A program made the translations under genes and the position numbers. A model generated the notes under the pieces. That model saw only the letters and a list, made by a program, of their open reading frames with translations. It made no database searches and was not told where the DNA came from. This document shows positions 28,580 through 63,506 of a DNA stretch of 64,000 bases, piece after piece. The DNA is taken from assembly GCF_009914755.1 (NCBI RefSeq), contig NC_060930.1, one strand, 5' to 3'. This DNA comes from the human T2T-CHM13v2.0 reference genome, Homo sapiens. Position 1 is the first letter of the stretch; each line of letters opens with the position of its first letter.

Positions 28580-29452
28580 TTTCAAGGAAAATTTGTTCTA
28601 TTTTAATTATTTTTATGTACAGAAAACTCAACAGTGTACATTTAACCCAGCTTAGTTGCAAGTTCTTGAGCCTTTGCCTTTTTGAGCTTGCCAATGCAAG
28701 CCACAGACTTGGGACCCAGGACATTGCCTCCCCAGTGACGGCGGATCTCATTGTATCTGTCATTGTAGTCAGTCCTGATAGCTCCCACTAGCTTAGCCAA
28801 AGCGCCTTTGTCTTCTGAGTTAACCTGTATGAAGGCGACAGTGGTGCAGGTCTTCCTGTGGACTAGACGTCCCAGTCTTGCCTCCCCCTTGATAATGCAG
28901 TAAGGGACCCGCATTTTATGACACAGGGCAGGCAAGAAGACAACCAGCTCGATGGGATCCACGTCGTGTGCAATCACCACCGGCTGAGCTTTCTTATTCT
29001 CTAGCAAGGTGGTGATGGTGTTAACTCCTGCTCGAAGGACAGGTGGTCTCTTAGTGGGGATGCCCCCTTTGCCAGCAGCTTTCTTTTTGGCCAGGGCCAA
29101 CAGCCTCTGTTTCTTCTCTTGCTTAGTCTCTGATCTGTACTTGTGGGCCAGCTGAAGTAGCAGAGCAGCTGTTTGGTGGTCCAGGGCCTGGGTGAACTGG
29201 TTAATCTCAGGAGGCACTTTCAGCCACTTACAGAGGATGGCTCTCTGCCGCTGCAACCTGATATAGTGGGGGCCATTTCACAAAGCTGGTTAGGTCTCTT
29301 TTGGGCTGAATGTCCTGTCCAATGTCAAAATTCTTAGGCCGTTTCTCAAACAGGGGATTCACCACTTTCTTAACCTCCTGCTTCTTCACGACAGCAGGGC
29401 CGGAGCCACCTTCTTTCCCTTGGCCTTCTTTCCTTTCGGCAGGAGGAGAGAG
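28580..29452 (-). pseudogene. RPL7AP34: Full-length processed pseudogene of ribosomal protein L7a (RPL7A; probably RPL7AP34)
   Basis: Intronless [14 protein letters not shown]...[15 protein letters not shown]...[16 protein letters not shown]...ELATKLG*. It retains the 5' TOP pyrimidine tract and 3' UTR but has lost the ATG and has frameshifts near 29398 and 29270. TSD CCTGATTTAATT at 28568-28579 and 29453-29464. The symbol number is from recall. Confidence 0.95.
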
Positions 29453-29524
29453 CCTGATTTAATTATTTTTAAAGGTGATAAATGTTGACAAGATTTGAAG
29501 TTTTTTTTTTTAAAGAAAACCTTT

Positions 29525-30060
29525 ATGTGATATATATACACAATGGAATACTAATTATCCATACAAAAATGGAATCCTGTCATTGGCAGTAACACGGATA
29601 GAACTGGAGGACATTATGTTAAGTGAAAGAAGGCAGGAACCTAAAGTTAAACACAGATTGTTCTCACTCATATGTGGAAGCTAAAAAAAAAAGTTGATCT
29701 TATAGAAGTAAAAAGTAGAACAGGGTATACTAGAGGCTTGGAAGGGTAGAGGGAAGAGGAAAATAGGGAGAGATTTGTTAAAGAATACAAAATTGCAACT
29801 ACATAGGAATAAATTATAGTGTTCTGTAGCATTGTAAGATGCCTATAGTTAACAATAATATTCAGTTTCAAATTGCTAGAAGGAGGATATTGAATGTTCA
29901 CAACATAAAGAAGTGATAAATGTTTGAGATGAGGAACACACTAATTACTCTGATCTAATTAATCACTATATGTTATACGTGTCATATCACTATGTACTCC
30001 ATAATATGTGCAATTATTATGTGTCAACTTGAAACGTTTAAACAGATAAATTTTAAAAGA
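29525..30060 (+). mobile_element. L1MA 3' fragment
   Basis: CACAATGGAATACT...GAACTGGAGGACATTATGTTAAGTGAAA...GTTCTCACTCATATGTGGAAGCTAAAA. Confidence 0.8.
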
Positions 30061-30096
30061 AAAACTTTAAAACTGAGAAATGTGAGCCAAACTAGA

Positions 30097-30433
30097 TAAT
30101 CCTCAGTGATTGGTTTTTTAATCTACATAATAGATTCAAAACAAAATGCTTCATGAGCCCCTCCCTGGATTGCAATTAATGGCAGTGTGAAAAAAAGATT
30201 ATGTGATTAATCAGAGATAATGTAATCAACCAGGGCAGTGTGCCCGCCCTCTCTTTCTGGAGTATAAAAGGAGTTGTGAGAGGCTTGGGTCACCATTTGG
30301 TGAGCTGCGGGTGAAGCTACAAAGGTTGAAGCGTTCTTCAGACGACTCTACCTGAGGGTGAAGCTACAAAAATTGAAGCGTTCTTCAGACGACTCTACCT
30401 GAAGAAAGAACCCTGCTACAGAGAGGGGTGAGT
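30097..30433 (+). promoter_or_regulatory. Candidate distal TATA promoter plus ATG-free first exon (about 30292-30427) with DUX4/paired-like homeodomain motifs
   Basis: TAATCC 30097, TGATTAATCA 30204-30213, TAATGTAATCA 30218-30228, GC box 30242-30249, TATAAAAG 30263-30270, donor GGG|GTGAGT 30427/30428. Confidence 0.55.
30309..30402 (+). repeat. 47-bp tandem duplication (2 copies, 45/47 identical)
   Basis: GGGTGAAGCTACAAA(GG/AA)TTGAAGCGTTCTTCAGACGACTCTACCTGA at 30309-30355 and 30356-30402. Confidence 0.97.
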
Positions 30434-30569
30434 AGGCCACACCAACTTTCATGATAAAGGGCCTGTAAGAGCTCCTCGAGCCTTGGTTCGGGTGCATATG
30501 TGATTAGGAGGTTTGTTTTTTAACATTTCTATAGTGATATTTGTTTTTGGTTGGTTGGTTGGTTGGTTT

Positions 30570-31299
<730 letters not shown>

Positions 31300-32880: not shown

Positions 32881-34391
32881 GTTCATTATTTTTAACATTG
32901 TTTTATGATCATAACCTTTTTTAATGAATATTCTTGGGAACTATGATGTAGGTAGTTGCACGAGAGTCTTCATACAGATGTACCAGCACTGTATTTAACT
33001 TGTCACCAGTTGCAAAGTAGTAGAGAGAATGTATATCTGTGTATATTGATTATATTCAAACCAGTTTTTCCTCCAAAGTATACAATTCAAATTTGAACTA
33101 CAAATTTTGCCTCATCAAATAAGTCCTCAGTAATTGTGTGATACAGCTTAGTTTAACGTAATCTGTTGATGATGTCAAAGCTCTGCTTTTAACACAAGGC
33201 TGAAATTTTGTACCCAAAACCATGCTTCAGGACCATAAAGTAACAGGATGCTGTTAGCGACTCGGGTTCAGATAGAATCTCCTGTGGTCACTGAATGATT
33301 TTCACACACAATTTTGGTCTCCATGACTGTGTGTTCAGTAGTGAAAGCCAAAGGTCAATGTGCTTCCTCCTTATAAATAACCAGTTACATGGGTGGCCTA
33401 AAAATAAGTTCTTCTTGGCCAAGACAGGTTAATGAAAGCCAGTTTGGTATCCTGTCATGCAGTATAGCTATTTTAGTGTCTCAGTGTAGCTAATTTGTCA
33501 GCCTTGCCTGGACATTAGCACATATTTAGATCTTGATGTTCTAACTAATGAATGACAGCTAAGGAATGTGTAGCTTCCTGGTAAAGAATTGATTGCATTA
33601 TCACTGATTAGGTTGGGGGAATTGGAATTTAGTATCTTTGTGTATAGGAGCAGGAAAGGTAAATTATGTTTTAAAATTCACTGAAGGATTGTAGGAGAAG
33701 AGAAAGGAAGAGGAAATTGTGGCAGGAACATAACCAAACTAAACAAAACCATTGCCCAGCCTGGGATTATAATTGTAATGGAGTACAATTAACGTATTTG
33801 AGTCAGGTTATTCAAAAGGTTATGGCTACAGTAGTTTAAAACAGAAAATACGAAAGAAAAATAGCAGGGCATCAAAGTTAGTGATATCAGTTGGCCTTAT
33901 TTTAAGAGGCTTATAACCACACCTGAAAATTTCCAATTACCAGTCTAGAAATTTCCATAGACATTGACTATATCTGAGGAGGGGAGGAGTAATTCAGTGC
34001 TGTAATTTAAATTTAAAAACATTCAGAAGACTGAAAGCACAAATATTCAAAGTAACAGATGGTAGCCTCCTCTCAGAGGCAATAAAAAGACTTTACAATC
34101 CTCACCAGAAGTGTATTTAGTTATAATTTAGTTTTGCAGTTTCTTTTTAAGTATATTCCATTACAGTAGGAATTTTCTCTATTCTTGTCAAGCTTCTTGT
34201 CTCTCTTAAACCTCAAAGTATATGAAAAGCATTCTATTCATGTTCTTTTATCATAATACTGGGAGTATCTTGTCCAGAACTTGACCAGAAATTCTTATAC
34301 ACTTTCTTCTAGACTGTAGTCCCAAATCCTTAGAAGACTGTTTCAAGGGCTTTACCTCCACTCCCACATTACAACCTTCCAGCCTGAATTA

Positions 34392-42311: not shown

Positions 42312-43934
42312 TAGTAGAGACAGCGTTTCTCCATGTTGGTCAGGCTGGTCTTGAACTCCCGACCTCAAGTGATCCAACTGTCTTGGCCTCCCAAAGTGCT
42401 GGGATTACAGGCGTGAGCCACCTTGACTGGCAAGATACTTTTAATATCCGAAAAGTATTTCATTATATAGATACTTCAAGTGATATCACCCACTATGAGT
42501 TGATTTTTTAACTAATTTCTATCTCAGAGTCTGAGTATTCTAATAAATTCAACAAAACAGTGCAAATATGTGTTTAGCACATGGCTTGGAAAACAACAAG
42601 AGCACAATAAGTTTTAGCTATTCTTGCTGTTATTGTAATCTATCAAGAGTTTAATTGTTCTCTTAATACCTAAATATACAACTTTTAGGAGTCCCGCTGC
42701 TATATTCTCAAAACCCTCAGAAATAGTGTCTTTCTCTAAGCATACTTTGAGTGCCTTTATTTATTTTAAGTTTCTGGTTTATTCCCTACAAACATATTGC
42801 TAATGAAAATGTGAAATTATGGAACTTTTCATCAGTGTGCCTATACATTCAGCACCATAGCATAAAACAGGCTCAAAACCATGGCCTTATATCTCTGTTT
42901 GGCCTTTGACAATTTTTAGAGGCAGTGTGGCATTTTGTGATGTAAAACTTCTCCATTTTATTTCCATATTTCTAATCTCTCCACTTTTCTCTGCCTCCAC
43001 TGTCCTGATCATAGTCAACACCAACATTGTCTTCCATTTGACAAGGCAGGAAATCTCAAGTGTTTCACCCTGTTAAAATAATTCTACTCTAGGGCCTTCT
43101 CCAATCCATTCTCCACAGAACAGAAAAACAATTCTCTTAAAACAAATTTCCTGATATGTGGTGTGATTCACTGTCAGCAAAATAAATCCAAATCCTTTCC
43201 ATGGCCTACAAGGTCCTACGTGATCCAGTCCCTGCTAGATGTCCAGGCTTATTTCCTTCCCTTGTATTGCTGCAGTCCCTCAGGTCTTCCAACTCCTTGA
43301 GTACCAACCAAACTCCCACCTGAAATTCTGTGTTGTCATTTCCTCCACCAAAAATATCTCTCTTCCTCCCCCTCTTTTTGTGATTCATTCTCATCATTTA
43401 GATCTGGATCTCCTGGGAGACACCACCCCTGACTTCACTGTCTAAAGTAAGTCACCCCAGCCATTCTGTTGACCTCCTTCACAGCACAGATTATAAATAT
43501 ATTCTATGCGTATTTACTTGTTATTTTCTCTCTTTTCTCACCTGTATATAAATTTCATTGGGGCAGAAAACATGTTTATGTTATTCATAAGATAGCAGAG
43601 TGCCTGGCATATGCTAGGCATTTAACACATATGTGTTGGGGAAGGAGGGAAGGTTGACAGCCACAGCTATGGATGTAGGTGAAAACCCCAAGGAAAGTGG
43701 AAAGTGAGTCCAGGAGGCCCTAGGACAAAACTCCAGTGAACACCATTGTTAACGGGATTGAGAGACTAAGAACCCTGCAAAGAAAACTTAGAAAAACTGG
43801 GAATAGGATGCCCTAATAGAATTTTATGTGGGAAAGTAATATGATAGTATGCAAATAAATAGTGGTTGAGTATTTACTATGTGCATTAATATGTCTGAGG
43901 ATTAAAGAAATACATTATAGGACAACTATATTTA

Positions 43935-50452: not shown

Positions 50453-52284
50453 TCAGCACTGCTTGTGGTAATTACAGGATCTGTGGATCACAAGGCTCAC
50501 AACTTGTATCACAAGTTCTACAAGAAAATTGGCTAACACATATTTGGCTCTGTTAATCATTTGCTGAGTTTATATCTTGTCCCACCAAATGTATTTTTTG
50601 AAATGCCATTACATGAAAAAGTTTCACTATTCCAATTATCTGTGTTTACCAACTTGTGGAGTAAGAGTGGCTGACTGAATATGTGCTTTTTAACTACACT
50701 ATTATATACATTGGCCAAGCTTTTTATATTAACCCTACCCATGAAGTATCACCAATATTTCCCCCAGTGTGAAATTGACATTTGTCAAAAGCCTTTTGCC
50801 ATATAAAAGTTTTTAGTTCTTATATATGAAATCTGTCCCTTTTTTTCGACATGAGTTCCCCAGCCTGCTTAGCTTTGCCCCTACCACCCAAGATTTTTAA
50901 GCTTTCTATATTTTCTTAGAATTTAAGATTTTAAAGTCTTTACTTTTTTAAATCATTTATTTGTAAAGGGACATATTTCTCAAGTGTGCTAGTTTTCCTT
51001 GATTTTAATGGATTAAAATGTGTCGTAGGTGAGCCATTTTCTTCCAAATGACGAAGAGTTTTTGTTCCTTTGAAAGTCTGGCCCAGGATTTTGTTTGTTT
51101 TTGTTTTTTTAAAGTTCTTATTTTACTTACAGAGTTAAGAAAGTTGAATAACTATACAACCAGTCTCTAAATAGAAGTTCTAATAAATCCTAAGATGTTG
51201 CAGGGCACTGAAAGAGGACAAAATTTGATCCCTAAAGCCCTCTCCAATCTCATACTCGGTGAAAATAACAAACAAAAGGCTTCAGTGTTAGTGGAAAACT
51301 GAGTTCTTAAAAAGCAGGTAAAGGTCCTGTTTGGTCCTTCTCCAGAGCTGAGGAGAAAGGGTTTTCAGATTATAAATAACAGAGGTGCCCTTGTATGGCA
51401 CAGAATTGCGATAAGACTTTACTTCTTAGGGGCTTAAATAATGAAGTCAGTAAAAGAGGACTGAAAACGAACATAAAGAAGAGCTTTAGCTTTGACGCAA
51501 AGAATTACATCAGTGCTTGACAAAACCGAGGATTCTTAATTTCTAAAAACGCTTTCTTTAAGCACTTCCTAACCTTTCATTATCTGAGACAACATATCAA
51601 GTGAGCAGCAGTACAAAGGATGCATGTGATTTCGAAATGCCACAATTGAGCCAACTGCAGTTGCACGCGTACGTAGTATAGAGAGGTGTGATCAAAAAAA
51701 GAATATAGGGAGCATAGGGCTTCGTCTGCATCAAAAGATACTCTCCCCATCTTCTATAGCCTTAAGTTTTGCGAAGGTAAGTTTCTCCCCGCTTGAAAGC
51801 GCCCCCAGGGACAAGAATTCATCTTGACCAAGCCTAAGGCCGTGGCATGCAAGGTGTTGAGTCACCGGGTACAGCGGTCTTGCGACATAAATATTATTTG
51901 ATGACGAAGGTACTCGGGGCCCAGGTGCCAAGGTAAACCACTGGCAAAGATGACCGTGGTTAAGGCAGTAGAAAGCAGGCTCGACACTGAGACGCGGTTC
52001 CAGCCCTAGAAGGATTGCATTTTACGATTCAGGCAAACTTCGAGTCTCCTCATGTGACATGTGTGCACTCCTGGACCGTTTTAATTATGAGAAACGTGGT
52101 TTGCAGCATGATTCCTTCCAGTCGATAAATCGGAATCTCTCTCGCTCCCACCCCTTCTTAACTTCAGGCTTCCTGCATCCCGGAGCACTCCCGGCAGCCC
52201 CTTCCCTCCCCCGCCCCGGGGATGCTCCGACTCGGCGCTTAGCCATTCATCAACCGGTTCACACCGGCGGCGGCCGCCGCGGAG

Positions 52285-52432
52285 TGACGTCCGGAGGGGG
52301 CGGGCCTCCGCCCCCGCCTGTCGGCTCCTGGCCCGCGGTTCCAGGCCGCGATTGGTGGCTGGAGGGTTGCACGTCGCGCCGGCTATAAAGGGGAGGGCTT
52401 GTGACGCAAGGGCGCCTCGGCGCGTGTATTGG
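52285..52432 (+). promoter_or_regulatory. PTP4A1: PTP4A1 core/proximal promoter with immediate-early architecture
   Basis: CRE-like TGACGTCC 52285, GC box GGGGCGGG near 52297, EGR1 consensus CGCCCCCGC 52309-52317, inverted CCAAT (ATTGG) at 52351 and 52428, TATAAA 52384-52389, TGACGCAA 52402. Confidence 0.88.
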
Positions 52433-52653
52433 CTCCTTCGGCTGCGGGCCGGCTCGGCTACGCGCTCTGCTCCGAGCCGCTCACTGCATGGTAGAGTCTG
52501 GTGCCCCCGCCGCCGCCTGCATCGCCGCCACCGCCGCTCCGCCACGACCACCGCCGCCTCCTGCCCTGCAGCCACCGCCACCGCCTGTGTCGCCGCCGCC
52601 TCGGGACCGGCTGTATGATTAGGCCACAATCTTCAATGAGTAAACATATTCCT
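52410..52653 (+). other. PTP4A1: PTP4A1 exon 1 (5' UTR, GC-rich); TSS position approximate
   Basis: Lies downstream of TATAAA (52384) in the CpG island and ends at donor CCT|GTGAGT (52653/52654). The start is inferred from the TATA position. An Inr-like CTCACT also occurs at 52480-52485. Confidence 0.85.
52488..52622 (+). CDS. Proline-rich upstream ORF (uORF1), 44 aa: MVESGAPAAACIAATAAPPRPPPPPALQPPPPPVSPPPRDRLYD*
   Basis: First ATG after the TATA box (tgcATGG). Its stop TAG (52620-52622) lies just past the uORF2 ATG. Translation is not demonstrable from sequence. Confidence 0.5.
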   Translation: MVESGAPAAACIAATAAPPRPPPPPALQPPPPPVSPPPRDRLYD

Positions 52654-55600: not shown

Positions 55601-56466
55601 ACATTATTAAAATTATGAATATTTTCTTTACAGTTATAAATGAGAGTTGTTTCCTTTTTAGATTCATAAGCATACATTCTTATGATATTTCACATAACAA
55701 GTTGATTTTCAGAGACTCATTTTCCTCGTCTTCAGTTTAATGGGAATGATAACAGATTGTTAAGGATAAAGTGAGATTCTAAATATAGGACTTAAATCAG
55801 TCTAAGAAAAGGATATAAAAGCATAAAGTTGGAAAAGAACTTAGATGTTTCAGTTTATGAGTTAAGTAAATTATGCAAGACTAATAACTTCAGAGTTATC
55901 TGGAGTTTGTATTAATGTGTAAAAATGTTTTTGTTAGTTGGAAAAATCAACATAAAGTGTATGTAATTACAATGTAAAGAAAACAACTATCGAAAGGGAT
56001 AATTATTAGAATCATATAATTATATATTATATATAGATAGTATATATACAGAGAATATAACTAGATAGAATATATATGAATATATATATGAATTTCACAA
56101 AAATGTAACAATGGGTTTGGTTTTTTTTTCTGAGGAATCTTGGTAATAGATCATGGATTTCAGTTTAATCTATCTGACTGCTTGTTTTATGCTGATTGAT
56201 TTAATCTGTACTCACCCCTTGAGTTTTGCAATTCAAGTAAAAGTCGATGAAGCGGCTCAGGCCCTGCTTTAGAAAAATAGTTGTGTACTTAAATAGTGTA
56301 AAACCCTAATGTATTTCTTTTGAATTGGAAAATAACTTATTCTCTCTTTCTGTCTTTTTCTTTTAAACAGCAATTCTGTGGTGTTCTTGGTCACACATTT
56401 ATGGAGTTTCTGAAGGGCAGTGGAGATTACTGCCAGGCACAGCACGACCTCTATGCAGACAAGTGA
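52615..56466 (+). CDS. Spliced upstream ORF (uORF2), 44 aa; join(52615..52653,56371..56466): MIRPQSSMSKHIPQFCGVLGHTFMEFLKGSGDYCQAQHDLYADK*
   Basis: 13 codons in exon 1 join in phase 0 to 31 codons plus TGA in exon 2. It corresponds, by recall, to the conserved Mg2+-sensitive uORF described for PRL-1/PRL-2 mRNAs. Confidence 0.88.
53647..53666. promoter_or_regulatory. p53 response element in intron 1
   Basis: GAACAAGTCT AGTCTTGTCC: two RRRCWWGYYY half-sites, zero spacer, 19/20 match. Confidence 0.75.
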
Positions 56467-56815
56467 ACTGTAGAAACTGATTACTGCTCCACCAAGAAGC
56501 CCCCATAAGAGTGGTTATCCTGGACACAGAAGTGTTGAATTGAAATCCACAGAGCATTTTACAAGAGTTCTGACCTGGATGGGGTAAACCTCAGTGCACT
56601 TCTTTTCTGTTGGCCTCAGTATTACTGGATTGAAGAATTGCTGCTTCTTGTTAGGAGGTTCATTTCACTTATCATTACTTACAACTTCATACTCAAAGCA
56701 CTGAGAATTTCAAGTGGAGTATATTGAAGTAGACTTCAGTTTCTTTGCATCATTTCTGTATTCAATTTTTTTAATTATTTCATAACCCTATTGAGTGTTT
56801 TTTAACTAAATTAAC

Positions 56816-60115
<3,300 letters not shown>

Positions 60116-61649
60116 AATTGGGGTGCCTAATGCTACTGGAAGTGGAACTTGAGATAGGGCCTAATTTGTTATACATATTAGCCAACATGTTGGCTTAGTA
60201 AGTCTAATGAAGCTTCCATAGGAGTATTGAAAGGCAGTTTTACCAGGCCTCAAGCTAGACAGATTTGGCAACCTCTGTATTTGGGTTACAGTCAACCTAT
60301 TTGGATACTTGGCAAAAGATTCTTGCTGTCAGCATATAAAATGTGCTTGTCATTTGTATCAATTGACCTTTCCCCAAATCATGCAGTATTGAGTTATGAC
60401 TTGTTAAATCTATTCCCATGCCAGAATCTTATCAATACATAAGAAATTTAGGAAGATTAGGTGCCAAAATACCCAGCACAATACTTGTATATTTTTAGTA
60501 CCATACAGAAGTAAAATCCCAGGAACTATGAACACTAGACCTTATGTGGTTTATTCCTTCAATCATTTCAAACATTGAAAGTAGGGCCTACATGGTTATT
60601 TGCCTGCTCACTTTATGTTTACATCTCCCACATTCATACCAATATACGTCAGGTTTGCTTAACCATTGATTTTTTTTTTTTTTTACCAAGTCTTACAGTG
60701 ATTATTTTACGTGTTTCCATGTATCTCACTTTGTGCTGTATTAAAAAAACCTCCATTTTGAAAATCTACGTTGTACAGAAGCACATGTCTTTAATGTCTT
60801 CAGACAAAAAAGCCTTACATTAATTTAATGTTTGCACTCTGAGGTGCAACTTAACAGGGAGGGCCTGAGAAAAGAATGGGAGGGGGCTATTAATTATTTT
60901 TAGCAAAATGTTGCCTTTGTCTTGTGCAAACATGTAGAATATGCTCTTTAATTTAGTAAAATATTTTTTTAAAAGGTAGAGATGCTTTGTTATTGTAATC
61001 ATAAACTTCCTGAAATTCTTGTAATTTTTTTCCCATACTTATCAGAAGTGTGTTTACCAACTTATTTTTGTTTGAAAGTGTGATTTTTTTTTTCCTTCCC
61101 AACCTCTCTTGCAAAAAAAGAAATGGGTTTCTGCTAATGAATTGAGCAGACATCTAATATTTTATATGCCTTTTGAGCTGTGTAACTTAATATTTGGATA
61201 CTTGACAATTTGTTTTATTATGTAATTGATAAAATGGTGATGTGTATTAATGTTAGTTCAACCATATATTTATACTGTCTGGGGATGTGTGGTTATAGTT
61301 CTGTGGGAGAAATAATTTTGTCAGTGTTCACCAGCTTGTAAAAACTTAGTGCGAGAGCTGAAACATCTAAATAAATAATGACATGCATTTATCATCATTG
61401 AGATTGGTTTGCTTAAAATTAACTTATTTTGTAGAAGACAAAATGAATTGCACTTCACTTAATGTGTGTCCTCATCTTTTTACAAATAAATGAAGGATTA
61501 TAAATGATGTCAGCATTTTAGTAAACTTTTAGACAAAATTTGTTAGGGTCATTCATGAAAACTTTAATACTAAAAGCACTTTCCATTATATACTTTTTAA
61601 AGGTCTAGATAATTTTGAACCAATTTATTATTGTGTACTGAGGAGAAAT

Positions 61650-61795
61650 AATGTATAGTAGAGGACAGCCTTGGTTTGTAAAGCTCAGTTCCACTAGTTC
61701 ATGGTTTTGTGCAACTTCTGAGCCTCAGTTTTCTCCTTTGCAAATTAATAATTACATACCTTTATAGATTTTGAAATTAATTTAAATATTAGTAT
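61650..61795 (+). mobile_element. MIR remnant within the 3' UTR
   Basis: Core-like ACTTCTGAGCCTCAGTTTTCTCCTTTGCAAA...ATACCT. Confidence 0.55.
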
Positions 61796-63506
61796 TTGGT
61801 ACATGAAGGCTTAATGTTAAGTTTCCTTTAATGATCCACAATAATCCCTTTGATCACGTTAATCTAAATCTAGATGTCTTTGTCTAATTTTTTTTGAATA
61901 GCAGTTATAAATGTAAAGGACTCAAAGTTTAAGTAAAAAGTGATACTCCACCTTGTGTTTCAAAGAATTTAGTTCCACCTCTTCATACCAGTTTAACACT
62001 TAATATATTTCATTGGATTTTAGACAGGGCAAAAGGAAGAACAGGGGCCTCTGGAGGCCCTTGGTTATTTAAATCTTGGATTATTTGTGATAGTAATCAC
62101 AAATTTTTGGCTAATTTTTAACCTGAGGTTTTGTTTTTTTTTTAAAGGAAATGCAGCCTAGTCTTGAGAACATAATTTTATATAATCAATTACTAAATGT
62201 TAAACTATTACCACACAGCCCATAAAACAGCATTTGCGTTTATTGAGAGAGAGGATGTGCCATCATGATTAATGAAAACTATCTTTTGAGTTTGAAAAGA
62301 AATTAATTTGCAGTGTTTGGATTGTATATATGGTGCTAAAAATAAATTAATTTACTTTATAAACCTTATCTGTACATTATACGATGTGATGAAATTTGCT
62401 TTTTATCCAAATATTTTGTATCTTGTAAATATGGCTAATTATAGGAATGCCTATAATACATCTTAGATTCCTTATATCTAATAAGAGTTCAAAGAGTTAT
62501 GAGTTGAAGTCTTGAATGCAGGAAACTATCTGATAGTGTTCTAAAATTTGGTTACTTGGGTTTGGATACCCTTAGTGGGATGATGTAAATAGAGGCTAGC
62601 TACCTAGGCTTGTCTATAGCAACCATAATGTTGATGTAAGTAATGCGGTTACTGAATCATAAGAAAATGCCATCTCTTTTTAGTTGAAGGAAAACTCTGG
62701 AAGTAGGTGCCATTGGTCATTCTGCAGTGCACTGCAACCATTGTTTCCCCTAGTGCCCTCTTTTCCCTAGGGCATTGCTCTCCTATTCCCACGCCTTAAC
62801 ACAGCTCTATACCTAGAAGCAGCCAGCCCAGGCATGCAGTCACATTTAATCACATCCCCCTTCTAGAGTGCTTCAAAATGATGTAGTCCCTCAACTTGGC
62901 TAAAGAATCTCAATCTCTTGAAATTTATTTTTTTAATGTCATATTCATCTGGTAAATATCTACTGTTTGCCAGGCATTTAAGAATATGGCAAAGAACATA
63001 AAAGATGGTGTCACCAGATTTTGGTCACCAATGAGTACCCGACCCGTTGCCATGATTAAGAGAGAATGCTTTCTATTGGAGTTTCAGGAAATATAATTTG
63101 AGAATACTTTAAAGGGAAGTGGAAGTATAAGTGAATGATATTTTTCTTTTACATGTAAACAATGAAGTTATTTCAAAGTTAAGTTTTAAACAAAATACAT
63201 GAAGTAGTGTCTGCCATACATGTTAATATTCTACATTCTTGCTTCCTTAAATTAATATGTTTGTGTGTATATATGTGCCTCACACCTGAATTGAAAATTA
63301 AAGACTGGTTTAAAAGTGGTTTAAAAGTGACATTTAATGTTTCTCCATTACGTTTGGGGTAACCAGCCTAAGTGGAATCTTGGAAGGAAAGTAAGGGAAA
63401 AACTTGTATTTGCCTTCAATGAATTAAACCAGTGATATGTGTTAACGTATGAATGAAAGGATTGATGGTGATTTTATAATTATATATATTGCCGCAGTAA
63501 CCAGTT

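What the first reader, a model, noticed from the sequence alone, without database searches (positions are those of the whole stretch)
30097..30433. Orphan DUX4/paired-like homeodomain TATA promoter and ATG-free first exon 22 kb upstream of PTP4A1: possible embryonic uORF-bypass promoter
Seen: in about 340 bp that I do not recognise as a repeat, between an L1MA and an Alu, motifs occur in promoter order on the + strand. They are TAATCC (30097), inverted CCAAT (30109), palindromic TGATTAATCA (30204-30213), TAATGTAATCA (30218-30228), GC box (30242), TATAAAAG (30263-30270), CA start candidates about 30 nt later (30292/30295), an ATG-free stretch of about 135 nt, and donor GGG|GTGAGT (30427). A GGCAGTGTG direct repeat (30181, 30234) brackets the central homeodomain sites, and several CpGs are retained. 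Known: TAAYBBAATCA is the DUX4 consensus, and DUX4 opens alternative promoters at zygotic genome activation and in FSHD muscle. Inference: splicing to PTP4A1 exon 2 (56371) would drop uORF1 and the first two ATGs of the Mg-sensitive uORF2. Only a 21-aa remnant from 56401, or an in-frame accCTG at 30413, would remain, so PRL-1 translation could be decoupled from Mg2+ control in that cell state.
Basis: partly seen in the sequence, partly recalled or inferred. Interest (0 to 1): 0.85.

Follow-up and report, generated by a model that had tools for sequence, protein, structure and literature searches.

The report
Known DUX4-driven alternative PTP4A1 promoter
This short single-copy stretch is a real embryonic promoter and first exon of the PTP4A1 gene, switched on by the factor DUX4, but published data tables already recorded it in 2013 and 2015, so only the idea that it changes translational control is new, and that idea is untested.

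Summary
On their own the motifs occur at chance frequency, so the sequence alone does not prove function. Published tables do.

- **DUX4 binding and splicing:** Young et al. 2013 (PMC3836709, Tables S1 and S4) list a DUX4 ChIP peak, flagged 'Unique', that maps to window about 30015-30448. It has 11834 and 9314 spliced reads linking it to PTP4A1 in DUX4-expressing myoblasts, against 14 and 0 in controls.
- **Embryo start site:** Töhönen et al. 2015 (PMC4569847, supplementary data) list a transcript 5' end here among those rising from oocyte to 4-cell, and again from 4-cell to 8-cell. Its peak maps to about window 30293.
- **Annotation:** RefSeq already has exon 30234-30427.
- **Copy number:** the element is single-copy in the genome (control).

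So the promoter reading is correct but already known.

The uORF arithmetic is also right. However, the conserved 21-codon core of the regulatory uORF lies wholly in exon 2 and is kept in this transcript. What is lost is uORF1, a GC-rich exon 1, and two in-frame AUGs, one of them conserved in the paralogue. Loss of Mg2+ control is therefore unsupported. Altered uORF usage remains a testable idea.

The parts
30097..30102 (+). TAATCC, a K50 paired-like homeodomain half-site about 195 nt upstream of the start site
   Evidence: Its function was not tested.
30109..30113 (+). ATTGG (inverted CCAAT)
   Evidence: Its function was not tested.
30204..30213 (+). Palindromic TGATTAATCA with two overlapping TAATC-type half-sites
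   Evidence: The fifth column of Young 2013's peak list reads 2 for this peak. I read that column as a motif count, but I did not see its header.
30218..30228 (+). DUX4 consensus site TAATGTAATCA, centred about 70 nt upstream of the start site
   Evidence: Young 2013's best-motif 17-mer at hg19 64260186-64260202 maps to 30215-30231.
30243..30249 (+). GC box CCCGCCC
30263..30270 (+). TATA box TATAAAAG, with its first T 30 nt before the 5'-end peak
30293..30293 (+). Peak of embryo STRT 5' ends (transcription start), mapped to within about 1-2 nt
   Evidence: The Töhönen 2015 promoter region chr6:64258264-64260763 is defined as peak -2000 to +500, so the peak is at hg19 64260264. The offset 64,229,971 comes.
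30234..30427 (+). Alternative first exon of PTP4A1 as annotated by RefSeq. The STRT-defined form is about 30293-30427 (135 nt). It contains no ATG.
   Evidence: Hub annotation. The pyrimidine fraction before 30234 is 0.35, against 0.65-1.00 at 9 genuine acceptors.
30305..30402 (+). 47-nt tandem duplication inside the exon
30428..30433 (+). Splice donor GTGAGT (GGG|GTGAGT)
56371..56920 (+). PTP4A1 exon 2, the likely splice target. It is the first annotated downstream exon that has an AG acceptor. The main ATG is at 56816.
   Evidence: Young 2013's linking reads join the peak to NM_003463. The exact acceptor used is inferred.
56401..56466 (+). Conserved 21-codon core of the regulatory uORF (MEFLKGSGDYCQAQHDLYADK, then stop), retained in the DUX4 transcript
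52414..52653 (+). Canonical exon 1, skipped by the alternative transcript. It is 69% GC, carries uORF1 (ATG at 52488) and the two upstream in-frame AUGs of the conserved uORF (52615 and 52636).

Best explanation
Window 30097-30433 is a single-copy, non-LTR, TATA-containing alternative promoter and non-coding first exon of PTP4A1.

DUX4 binds the consensus site at 30218-30228. Transcription starts about 70 nt downstream, near 30293, which is 30 nt after the TATA box. The ATG-free exon ends at the strong donor at 30427 and splices into the PTP4A1 gene body, most likely at exon 2 (56371).

The promoter fires in the earliest wave of human embryonic genome activation, from oocyte to 4-cell, and whenever DUX4 is expressed ectopically. 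The mRNA encodes normal PRL-1 behind a different leader. That leader lacks the GC-rich exon 1, uORF1 and two of the three in-frame AUGs of the conserved uORF. It keeps the conserved C-terminal uORF core.

- **Shown by published tables plus coordinate mapping:** DUX4 binding, DUX4 dependence, splicing to PTP4A1, and the embryo start site.
- **Inferred:** the exact acceptor, and any effect on translation.
For: **Sequence.** All motifs are present in promoter order.

**Young et al. 2013 (PMC3836709).** I read supplementary file 5 part 1 and passages of file 2 and of the main text.
- Its fifth row is chr6:64259986-64260419, Unique, NM_003463 PTP4A1. Linking reads are 11834 and 9314 with DUX4 and 14 and 0 in controls, a ratio of 1180.8.
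- The peak-list row reads 217, 2, 64260186-64260202, Unique, 10.73, 4.5e-7. I did not see that table's header. I read these as peak height, motif count, best-motif coordinates, repeat status, log2 activation and p-value.

**Mapping hg19 onto the window.**
- The two best motifs of adjacent peaks are 3372 nt apart in hg19. The two consensus sites in the window, at 30218(+) and 33590(-), are also 3372 nt apart.
- With the single offset 64,229,971, all 6 of 6 listed best-motif 17-mers between window 11167 and 56205 land on TAAT/ATTA-type sequences. Two are exact consensus in the same register.

**Töhönen et al. 2015 (PMC4569847).** I read supplementary passages, file 4 part 1 and main-text passages.
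- TFE FE479552 at chr6:64260232-64260448 (+) is labelled 'Intron PTP4A1'. It scores 64.8 (q 0.0054) in the oocyte-to-4-cell list and 44 (q 0.031) in the 8-cell list.
- The paper's promoter definition puts the 5'-end peak at hg19 64260264, which is window 30293.

**First exon, not cassette.** The pyrimidine fraction before 30234 is 0.35, against 0.65-1.00 at the 9 AG-preceded annotated exons.

**Single copy.**, with the positive control.

**Independent DUX4 response of the gene.**
- PTP4A1 protein tracks DUX4 in MB135-iDUX4 cells (PMC10657687 passage).
- PTP4A1 correlates with induced DUX4 in trophoblast organoids (bioRxiv 10.1101/2025.01.22.634317 passage).
- Nanopore read counts are 0/0/0 with DUX4-s against 12/50/29 with DUX4-fl (PMC8120133 Table S2).
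Against: - The RefSeq exon starts at 30234, 29 nt upstream of the TATA box and directly after an AG. The TFE region starts at about 30261. Some transcripts therefore begin, or are spliced in, upstream of the TATA-directed site.
- The hg19-to-window mapping is derived from motif spacing, not from an alignment.
- No read-level data were seen, so the acceptor (56371) is inferred.
- Seven PTP4A1 entries appear in a 5'UTR table in PMC10553841, and the rows shown carry Ensembl transcript ids. No exon string was found anywhere in that paper's supplementary files, where long cells are cut.
- Each motif on its own is at chance frequency.
Confidence: 0.9

Rival explanations
1. Exon 30234-30427 is mainly an internal cassette exon of long PTP4A1 transcripts that start far upstream. 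On this reading, the homeodomain and TATA motifs play no promoter role.
For: - An AG sits at 30232-30233, directly before the RefSeq exon start.
- That start lies upstream of the TATA box.
- The RefSeq gene span begins upstream of the window, and upstream internal exons exist at 1605, 2795, 7722 and 12239, each with an AG and a pyrimidine tract.
Against: - The pyrimidine fraction at -20..-4 is 0.35, against 0.65-1.00 at 9 genuine acceptors.
- STRT 5' ends cluster here in embryos.
- Linking reads are DUX4-dependent by about 1000-fold, and a DUX4 ChIP peak sits on the site.
Confidence: 0.05
2. In embryos the promoter is driven mainly by other paired-like homeodomain factors (LEUTX, TPRX, DUXA or OTX2-type, acting on TAATCC or the palindrome) rather than by DUX4. 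On this reading, DUX4 binding in myoblasts is an overexpression effect.
For: - TAATCC at 30097 and the palindrome at 30204 are present.
- The TFE is still rising from 4-cell to 8-cell.
- Töhönen 2015 flags the promoter as containing a sequence like their de novo motif, which they describe as resembling PRD-like homeodomain binding motifs among others.
- PTP4A1 did not separate FSHD from control myotubes.
Against: - The site is an exact DUX4 consensus with a ChIP peak.
- DUX4 alone switches it on in two myoblast lines.
- The TFE is in the earliest list, oocyte to 4-cell. From general knowledge, DUX4 is present at that stage, before LEUTX and TPRX proteins accumulate.
Confidence: 0.15
3. The element is a very old or unclassified solitary LTR, like the MaLR and ERVL LTRs that make up most DUX4-activated promoters.
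For: - The layout resembles a U3-R arrangement, with transcription-factor sites, a TATA box and then a transcribed region.
- 144 of 238 DUX4 alternative promoters in Young 2013 lie in repeats.
Against: - Young 2013 flag it as 'Unique'.
- The own-genome search found only itself, while the same tool found thousands of 77-81% identical copies of the flank.
- Three pattern searches allowing 3 mismatches found only hits with no homology in the flanks.
Confidence: 0.05
4. It is a chance cluster of motifs with no function.
For: Each motif alone is at chance frequency. About 50 such architectures are expected per genome.
Against: ChIP, RNA-seq linking reads and embryo 5'-end data all fall on this site.
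Confidence: 0.02

Closest known systems
DUX4-activated alternative promoters in unique sequence, as in the rows for LEUTX, RBBP6, SLC34A2 and KDM4E in Young et al. 2013 Table S4
   Same: It has a DUX4 consensus site under a ChIP peak, DUX4-dependent initiation, and a new first exon spliced to an annotated gene. This locus is itself the fifth row of that table, and it has the largest linking-read count among the rows I read.
   Different: Nothing differs, because it is a listed member. It was never discussed in the main text. The PTP4A1 + DUX4 full-text search did not return the paper.
LTR-derived (MaLR THE1/MLT1, ERVL MLT2) DUX4 promoters
   Same: It works the same way: a DUX4 site upstream of a TATA-type start gives a chimeric transcript with a host gene.
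   Different: It is single-copy, with no detectable family members, and is flagged 'Unique'. It is therefore not a member.
Early human EGA promoters defined by STRT far-5'-ends (Töhönen et al. 2015; 32 TFEs at the 4-cell stage)
   Same: It is listed as TFE FE479552, rising from oocyte to 4-cell and again to 8-cell.
   Different: It is marked as containing a sequence like the de novo motif but carries no asterisk as a source of that motif. That motif usually overlaps Alu elements. I did not locate the motif-like sequence. The homeodomain sites described here lie in unique sequence.
Alternative leaders that change uORF content, here set against the conserved, sequence-dependent PTP4A1/PTP4A2 uORF (Hardy 2019, known to me only through citing papers; Takahashi 2020; Andreev 2015)
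   Same: Swapping the first exon alters the set of upstream AUGs in front of an mRNA known to be repressed by its leader. That repression is about sevenfold in PMC4383229.
   Different: The conserved peptide-coding core and its stop codon are retained. This is a partial trimming of the uORF system, not a bypass. No translation data exist for this leader.

Membership tests
DUX4 direct-target alternative promoter | Match to the DUX4 double-homeobox consensus TAAYBBAATCA | tested here: met
   TAATGTAATCA at 30218-30228 is the only + strand match in the 64 kb window.
DUX4 direct-target alternative promoter | DUX4 occupancy by ChIP-seq | tested here: met
   The Young 2013 peak chr6:64259986-64260419 has a column value of 217, read as peak height. 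It maps to window about 30015-30448. This rests on a published table plus mapping; no raw data were seen.
DUX4 direct-target alternative promoter | DUX4-dependent transcripts spliced from the bound region to the gene | tested here: met
   Linking reads are 11834 and 9314 with DUX4, against 14 and 0 in controls.
DUX4 direct-target alternative promoter | Loss of activity when the motif is mutated | not testable with these tools
   This needs a reporter or genome-editing experiment.
TATA-directed core promoter | TATA box about 30 nt upstream of the dominant 5' end | tested here: met
   The first T of the TATA box is at 30263 and the STRT peak maps to about 30293. The RefSeq start at 30234 and the TFE boundary at about 30261 show that some 5' ends lie upstream.
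Human EGA far-5'-end promoters (Töhönen 2015) | 5'-end cluster significantly up-regulated from oocyte to 4-cell | tested here: met
   FE479552 scores 64.8 with q 0.0054.
LTR (MaLR/ERVL) promoter | Belongs to a multi-copy LTR family | tested here: not met
   The search found 1 candidate, itself, against 6326 candidates for the control flank. Young 2013 flag it 'Unique'. No profile (Dfam) search was available.
uORF-bypass leader | The regulatory uORF is absent from the alternative mRNA | tested here: not met
   The 21-codon conserved core at 56401-56466, and the 6- and 2-codon uORFs, remain. Only uORF1 and the AUGs at 52615 and 52636 are lost.
uORF-bypass leader | Higher or Mg2+-insensitive translation of the main ORF from the alternative leader | not testable with these tools
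   This needs leader-reporter assays or isoform-resolved ribosome profiling.

The most novel reading that the evidence does not exclude
The DUX4/EGA-specific leader re-tunes PRL-1 translation rather than only adding transcripts. It replaces a 240-nt, 69% GC exon (MFE -78 kcal/mol) with a 135-nt, 49% GC, AUG-free exon (MFE -35.5 kcal/mol). It also removes uORF1 and two of the three in-frame AUGs of the conserved uORF, one of which is conserved in the paralogue.

Fewer ribosomes would then enter the stalling uORF, and more would reach the PRL-1 AUG. That would raise PRL-1 output per mRNA and blunt, but not abolish, Mg2+ and eIF2 sensing at genome activation and in DUX4-expressing cells. No paper found in four searches states this.
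Probability: 0.3. Interest if true: 0.5.

Novelty: already known. Interest (0 to 1): 0.3.

Why it matters
The result shows that a blind reading of raw sequence correctly predicted a DUX4 promoter, its start site to within about 1-3 nt, and its splice donor. That is useful as a calibration of the scan.

Biologically, the promoter is among the strongest DUX4-dependent gene links in myoblasts. It is also one of the first loci to fire in the human embryo. Despite this, it has never been discussed in a main text I could find.

PRL-1 regulates magnesium transport through CNNM proteins, and its mRNA is under unusually tight leader-mediated control. If the embryonic leader changes that control, it would connect DUX4 to magnesium and energy metabolism at genome activation and in FSHD. 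That link is speculative. What is established here is ordinary: a known alternative first exon.

Tried and rejected
- **LTR or repeat origin: rejected.** The own-genome DNA search gave only itself. Three pattern searches with up to 3 mismatches followed.
  - 5 hits, of which 2 were self; the reversed-pattern control gave 11.
  - 5 hits, of which 1 was self; the control gave 1.
  - 1 hit, itself; the control gave 0.
  - A blastn of 30050-30520 against the 7 non-self loci showed no homology beyond the seeded 25-27 nt.
- **Internal cassette exon: considered and judged unlikely**.
- **Significance of the GGCAGTGTG repeat: rejected.** It arises in 7% of shuffles.
- **CpG-island character: rejected**.
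- **Monte-Carlo simulation of the whole architecture:** it timed out. I replaced it with an analytic estimate.
- **The exon in a published 5'UTR table:** three exon strings were absent from the PMC10553841 supplements, where long cells are cut. This is uninformative.
- **Isoform-resolved embryo transcriptome (PMC10616205):** no PTP4A1 in the 5 supplementary files held.
- **Hardy et al. 2019 (the Mg2+ uORF paper):** it is not held. Its content is known to me only through citing papers and recall.
- **Conservation in other primates or mammals:** not testable, because no other vertebrate genome is available here.
- **Supplements:** look-ups were exhausted at 15 of 15. PDF supplements of Young 2013 (figures S1-S13) and bioRxiv supplements could not be read, and they may show the locus.

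Full report
**1. What is in the sequence**

Reading 29400-31000 and a scripted check confirm every motif at the stated coordinate.
- TAATCC at 30097
- ATTGG at 30109
- Palindrome TGATTAATCA at 30204-30213
- TAATGTAATCA at 30218-30228
- CCCGCCC at 30243-30249
- TATAAAAG at 30263-30270
- CA dinucleotides with A at 30292 and 30295
- No ATG in 30234-30427
- Donor GGG|GTGAGT after 30427
- GGCAGTGTG at 30181 and 30234
- Six CpGs

It has 2.1 copies at 94% identity, and the two full copies differ at 3 of 47 positions.

**2. Is it more than chance?**

Taken one at a time, no.
- The DUX4 consensus TAAYBBAATCA occurs twice in the window, at 30218(+) and 33590(-), against 1.05 expected; 29 of 100 shuffles had at least 2.
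- TATAAAAG occurs 5 times against 4.99 expected.
- A 9-mer direct repeat appears in 1399 of 20000 shuffles.
- CpG observed/expected is 0.39, so this is not an island. Canonical exon 1 has 1.07.

The ordered architecture is rare per window, at about 0.0011 per 64 kb. However, about 50 such architectures are expected per genome by a rough analytic estimate. A simulation of this timed out. Sequence alone therefore cannot decide function.

**3. Repeat or unique?**

- A search of the window's own genome with 30080-30500 found one candidate, itself.
- The same tool with the upstream flank 29530-30050 gave 6326 first-look candidates. Of these, 40 were scored, and the 39 non-self hits had 77-81% identity. 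By my own recognition, that flank is the 3' end of an old L1.
- This control shows the tool sees diverged repeats, and that the promoter region has none.
- Three pattern searches with up to 3 mismatches gave only isolated hits, with no homology in the flanks.
- Alu copies cover about 30554-30873.

**4. First exon or cassette exon?**

The RefSeq exon starts at 30234, directly after an AG and 29 nt upstream of the TATA box. It could therefore be an internal exon. Against that, the pyrimidine fraction at -20..-4 is 0.35. At the 9 annotated exons preceded by AG it is 0.65-1.00. Three other annotated alternative exons (1653, 43393, 51733) have no AG at all, so they are first exons.

**5. Published evidence for DUX4**

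A full-text search for PTP4A1 plus DUX4 found 7 papers.
- PMC10657687 (passage read): PTP4A1 mRNA is up in DUX4-expressing cells. PTP4A1 protein tracked DUX4 in MB135-iDUX4 lysates and supernatants, but did not separate FSHD from control myotubes.
- A bioRxiv preprint (passage read): PTP4A1 is listed among genes correlating with induced DUX4 (r > 0.4) in trophoblast organoids.

The decisive source is Young et al. 2013 (PMC3836709).
- The fifth row is chr6:64259986-64260419, 'Unique', NM_003463 PTP4A1. Linking reads are 11834 and 9314 in two DUX4-transduced myoblast lines, against 14 and 0 in controls. The ratio is 1180.8. This is the largest read count among the rows I read.
- The peak-list row reads 217, 2, 64260186-64260202, Unique, 10.73, 4.5e-7. 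I did not see that table's header. I read these as peak height, motif count, best-motif coordinates, repeat status, log2 activation and p-value.
- The main text describes 238 such promoters, 144 of them in repeats. They were defined by spliced 100-nt reads joining a peak to an annotated gene.
- PTP4A1 is not mentioned in that main text, since one search did not return the paper.

A nanopore study (PMC8120133, Table S2) lists PTP4A1 read counts of 0/0/0 in DUX4-s cells and 12/50/29 in DUX4-fl cells.

**6. Mapping hg19 onto the window**

No lift-over tool was available, so I used internal anchors.
- The best motifs of two adjacent peaks start at 64260186 and 64263558, which are 3372 nt apart. 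The two consensus sites in the window start at 30218 and 33590, and these are also 3372 nt apart.
- Because the sites are on opposite strands, the equal spacing fixes the 11-mer at positions 4-14 of the 17-mer. That gives hg19 = window + 64,229,971.
- With this one offset, all 6 of 6 best-motif 17-mers listed between window 11167 and 56205 land on TAAT/ATTA-type sequences. Two are exact consensus in the same register. A third is in that register with one mismatch. The others are near-consensus or a TAATTA core.
- The ChIP peak is therefore window about 30015-30448.

**7. Embryo start-site data**

Töhönen et al. 2015 (PMC4569847) list TFE FE479552 at chr6:64260232-64260448 (+), labelled 'Intron', PTP4A1.
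- It appears in the table keyed to Fig. 3a (oocyte to 4-cell), as the second row in the passage I saw, with score 64.8 and q 0.0054.
- It appears again in the table keyed to Fig. 3c (4-cell to 8-cell), with score 44 and q 0.031.
- Two 3'-UTR TFEs of PTP4A1 carry negative scores in a third table whose header I did not see.
- The paper defines promoter regions as -2000 to +500 around the TFE peak. The listed region is chr6:64258264-64260763, which puts the peak at 64260264. That is window 30293.
- The TFE region as a whole maps to about 30261-30477, so some 5' ends lie upstream.
- PTP4A1 has 0 occurrences in that main text.

**8. The leader and the uORFs**

Canonical leader, exon 1 plus exon 2:
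- uORF1 of 44 codons, with its ATG at 52488.
- A 44-codon uORF with three in-frame ATGs at 52615, 52636 and 56401.
- A 6-codon uORF and a 2-codon uORF.

Alternative exon joined to 56371:
- The 21-codon uORF from 56401 remains, as do the 6- and 2-codon uORFs.
- The CTG at 30413 is in frame, giving 36 codons.

Exon 1 is 69% GC with a predicted MFE of -78.1 kcal/mol over 240 nt. The 135-nt embryonic exon is 49% GC with -35.5 kcal/mol.

**9. Which part of the uORF matters?**

Background from passages I read:
- The PTP4A1 leader lowers translation about sevenfold and resists eIF2 inhibition (PMC4383229).
- The uORF represses in a sequence-dependent way, because a frameshift relieves the repression (PMC7530721).
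- A review of Hardy 2019 says that rearranging the coding sequence abolished Mg2+ sensitivity even with the start and stop codons kept (PMC11855589).
- Hardy 2019 itself is not held.

My test used the exon-2 part of the uORF as a query against the genome.
- It found processed copies and a paralogous locus on contig 1 (L020).
- That locus carries a PRL-type N-terminus about 490 nt downstream, 83% identical to the PTP4A1 exon-2 coding part. From recall, this is PTP4A2.
- Its uORF reads TFMAILSVRADFCQAQHSIFADK followed by a stop. It aligns with PTP4A1 residues TFMEFLKGSGDYCQAQHDLYADK over 23 positions at 56.5% identity. There is no similarity upstream of that.
- The conserved core is therefore exactly the 21-codon 'remnant' in exon 2. 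The embryonic transcript keeps it.

I also located the paralogue's exon 1 through a processed pseudogene.
- That exon ends in CTTCAATG..., and this AUG is in frame across the intron.
- The same CTTCAATG context surrounds the PTP4A1 ATG at 52636.
- An exon-1 start codon is therefore a conserved feature too, and the embryonic leader loses it.

On balance the sensing peptide is retained, so 'decoupled from Mg2+' is not supported. Entry into the uORF may well be reduced.

**10. Verdict**

The promoter interpretation is correct, but it is already recorded in two supplementary tables (2013 and 2015) and as a RefSeq exon.

The translational hypothesis is new as far as four searches show. Searches returned 0 papers. 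Nothing I saw addresses it: titles and abstract starts for all listed papers, and passages for six of them. The evidence here weakens its strong form and leaves a milder form open.

Noticed in passing
window 33590-33600 (- strand); ChIP peak at about 33215-33801: A second exact DUX4 consensus, TAATGCAATCA, lies 3.4 kb downstream in the intron. It sits under the locus's largest value in Young 2013's peak-list column that I read as peak height (414 against 217). The column I read as log2 activation is 8.93. I did not see the table header. Whether this is an enhancer, an antisense start, or simply intronic signal from the new transcript is unknown.
   Followed up: partly
window about 56044-56367; motif at about 56191-56201 (- strand): A third, weak DUX4 peak lies immediately upstream of the exon 2 acceptor. 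Its peak-list columns read 42 and 5.82, which I take as height and log2 activation. It has a one-mismatch motif, TAAATCAATCA.
   Followed up: no
window 30305-30402: A 47-nt tandem duplication inside the alternative exon has two full copies differing at 3 of 47 positions. It holds 4 of the region's 6 CpGs. Its age and any function are unknown.
   Followed up: partly
window 1653, 43393-43446, 51733-51776: Three further annotated alternative PTP4A1 exons lack an AG acceptor, so they are additional first exons (alternative start sites). The latter two contain no ATG.
   Followed up: no
window 52636 and 56401; L023/L020 (contig 1, 31.78-31.80 Mb, - strand): PTP4A1 and its paralogue share the same split uORF design. 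Both have an exon-1 AUG in the context CTTCAATG and an exon-2 AUG in the context ACATTTATGG, with the intron 10 and 8 codons before the second AUG respectively. The residues between the two AUGs are not conserved.
   Followed up: yes
window 52488-52622 and 52615: uORF1 (44 codons) ends 8 nt after the first ATG of the conserved uORF, so the two overlap out of frame. This arrangement could couple termination of one to initiation of the other.
   Followed up: no
L014 (contig 2, about 158.52 Mb): A processed PTP4A1 copy keeps the uORF region at 87% identity with an internal TAG. PMC8120133's supplementary table lists PTP4A1P1 on chr2 with an MLT1A LTR among rows of DUX4-activated repeat-gene pairs. 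The pseudogene therefore appears to acquire DUX4 responsiveness by a different route.
   Followed up: no
PTP4A1 3'-UTR (window about 61536-63479): In Töhönen 2015, two 3'-UTR 5'-end clusters of PTP4A1 carry negative scores while the alternative-promoter cluster rises. This fits decay of maternal mRNA with replacement by the embryonic isoform. I did not see that table's header.
   Followed up: no
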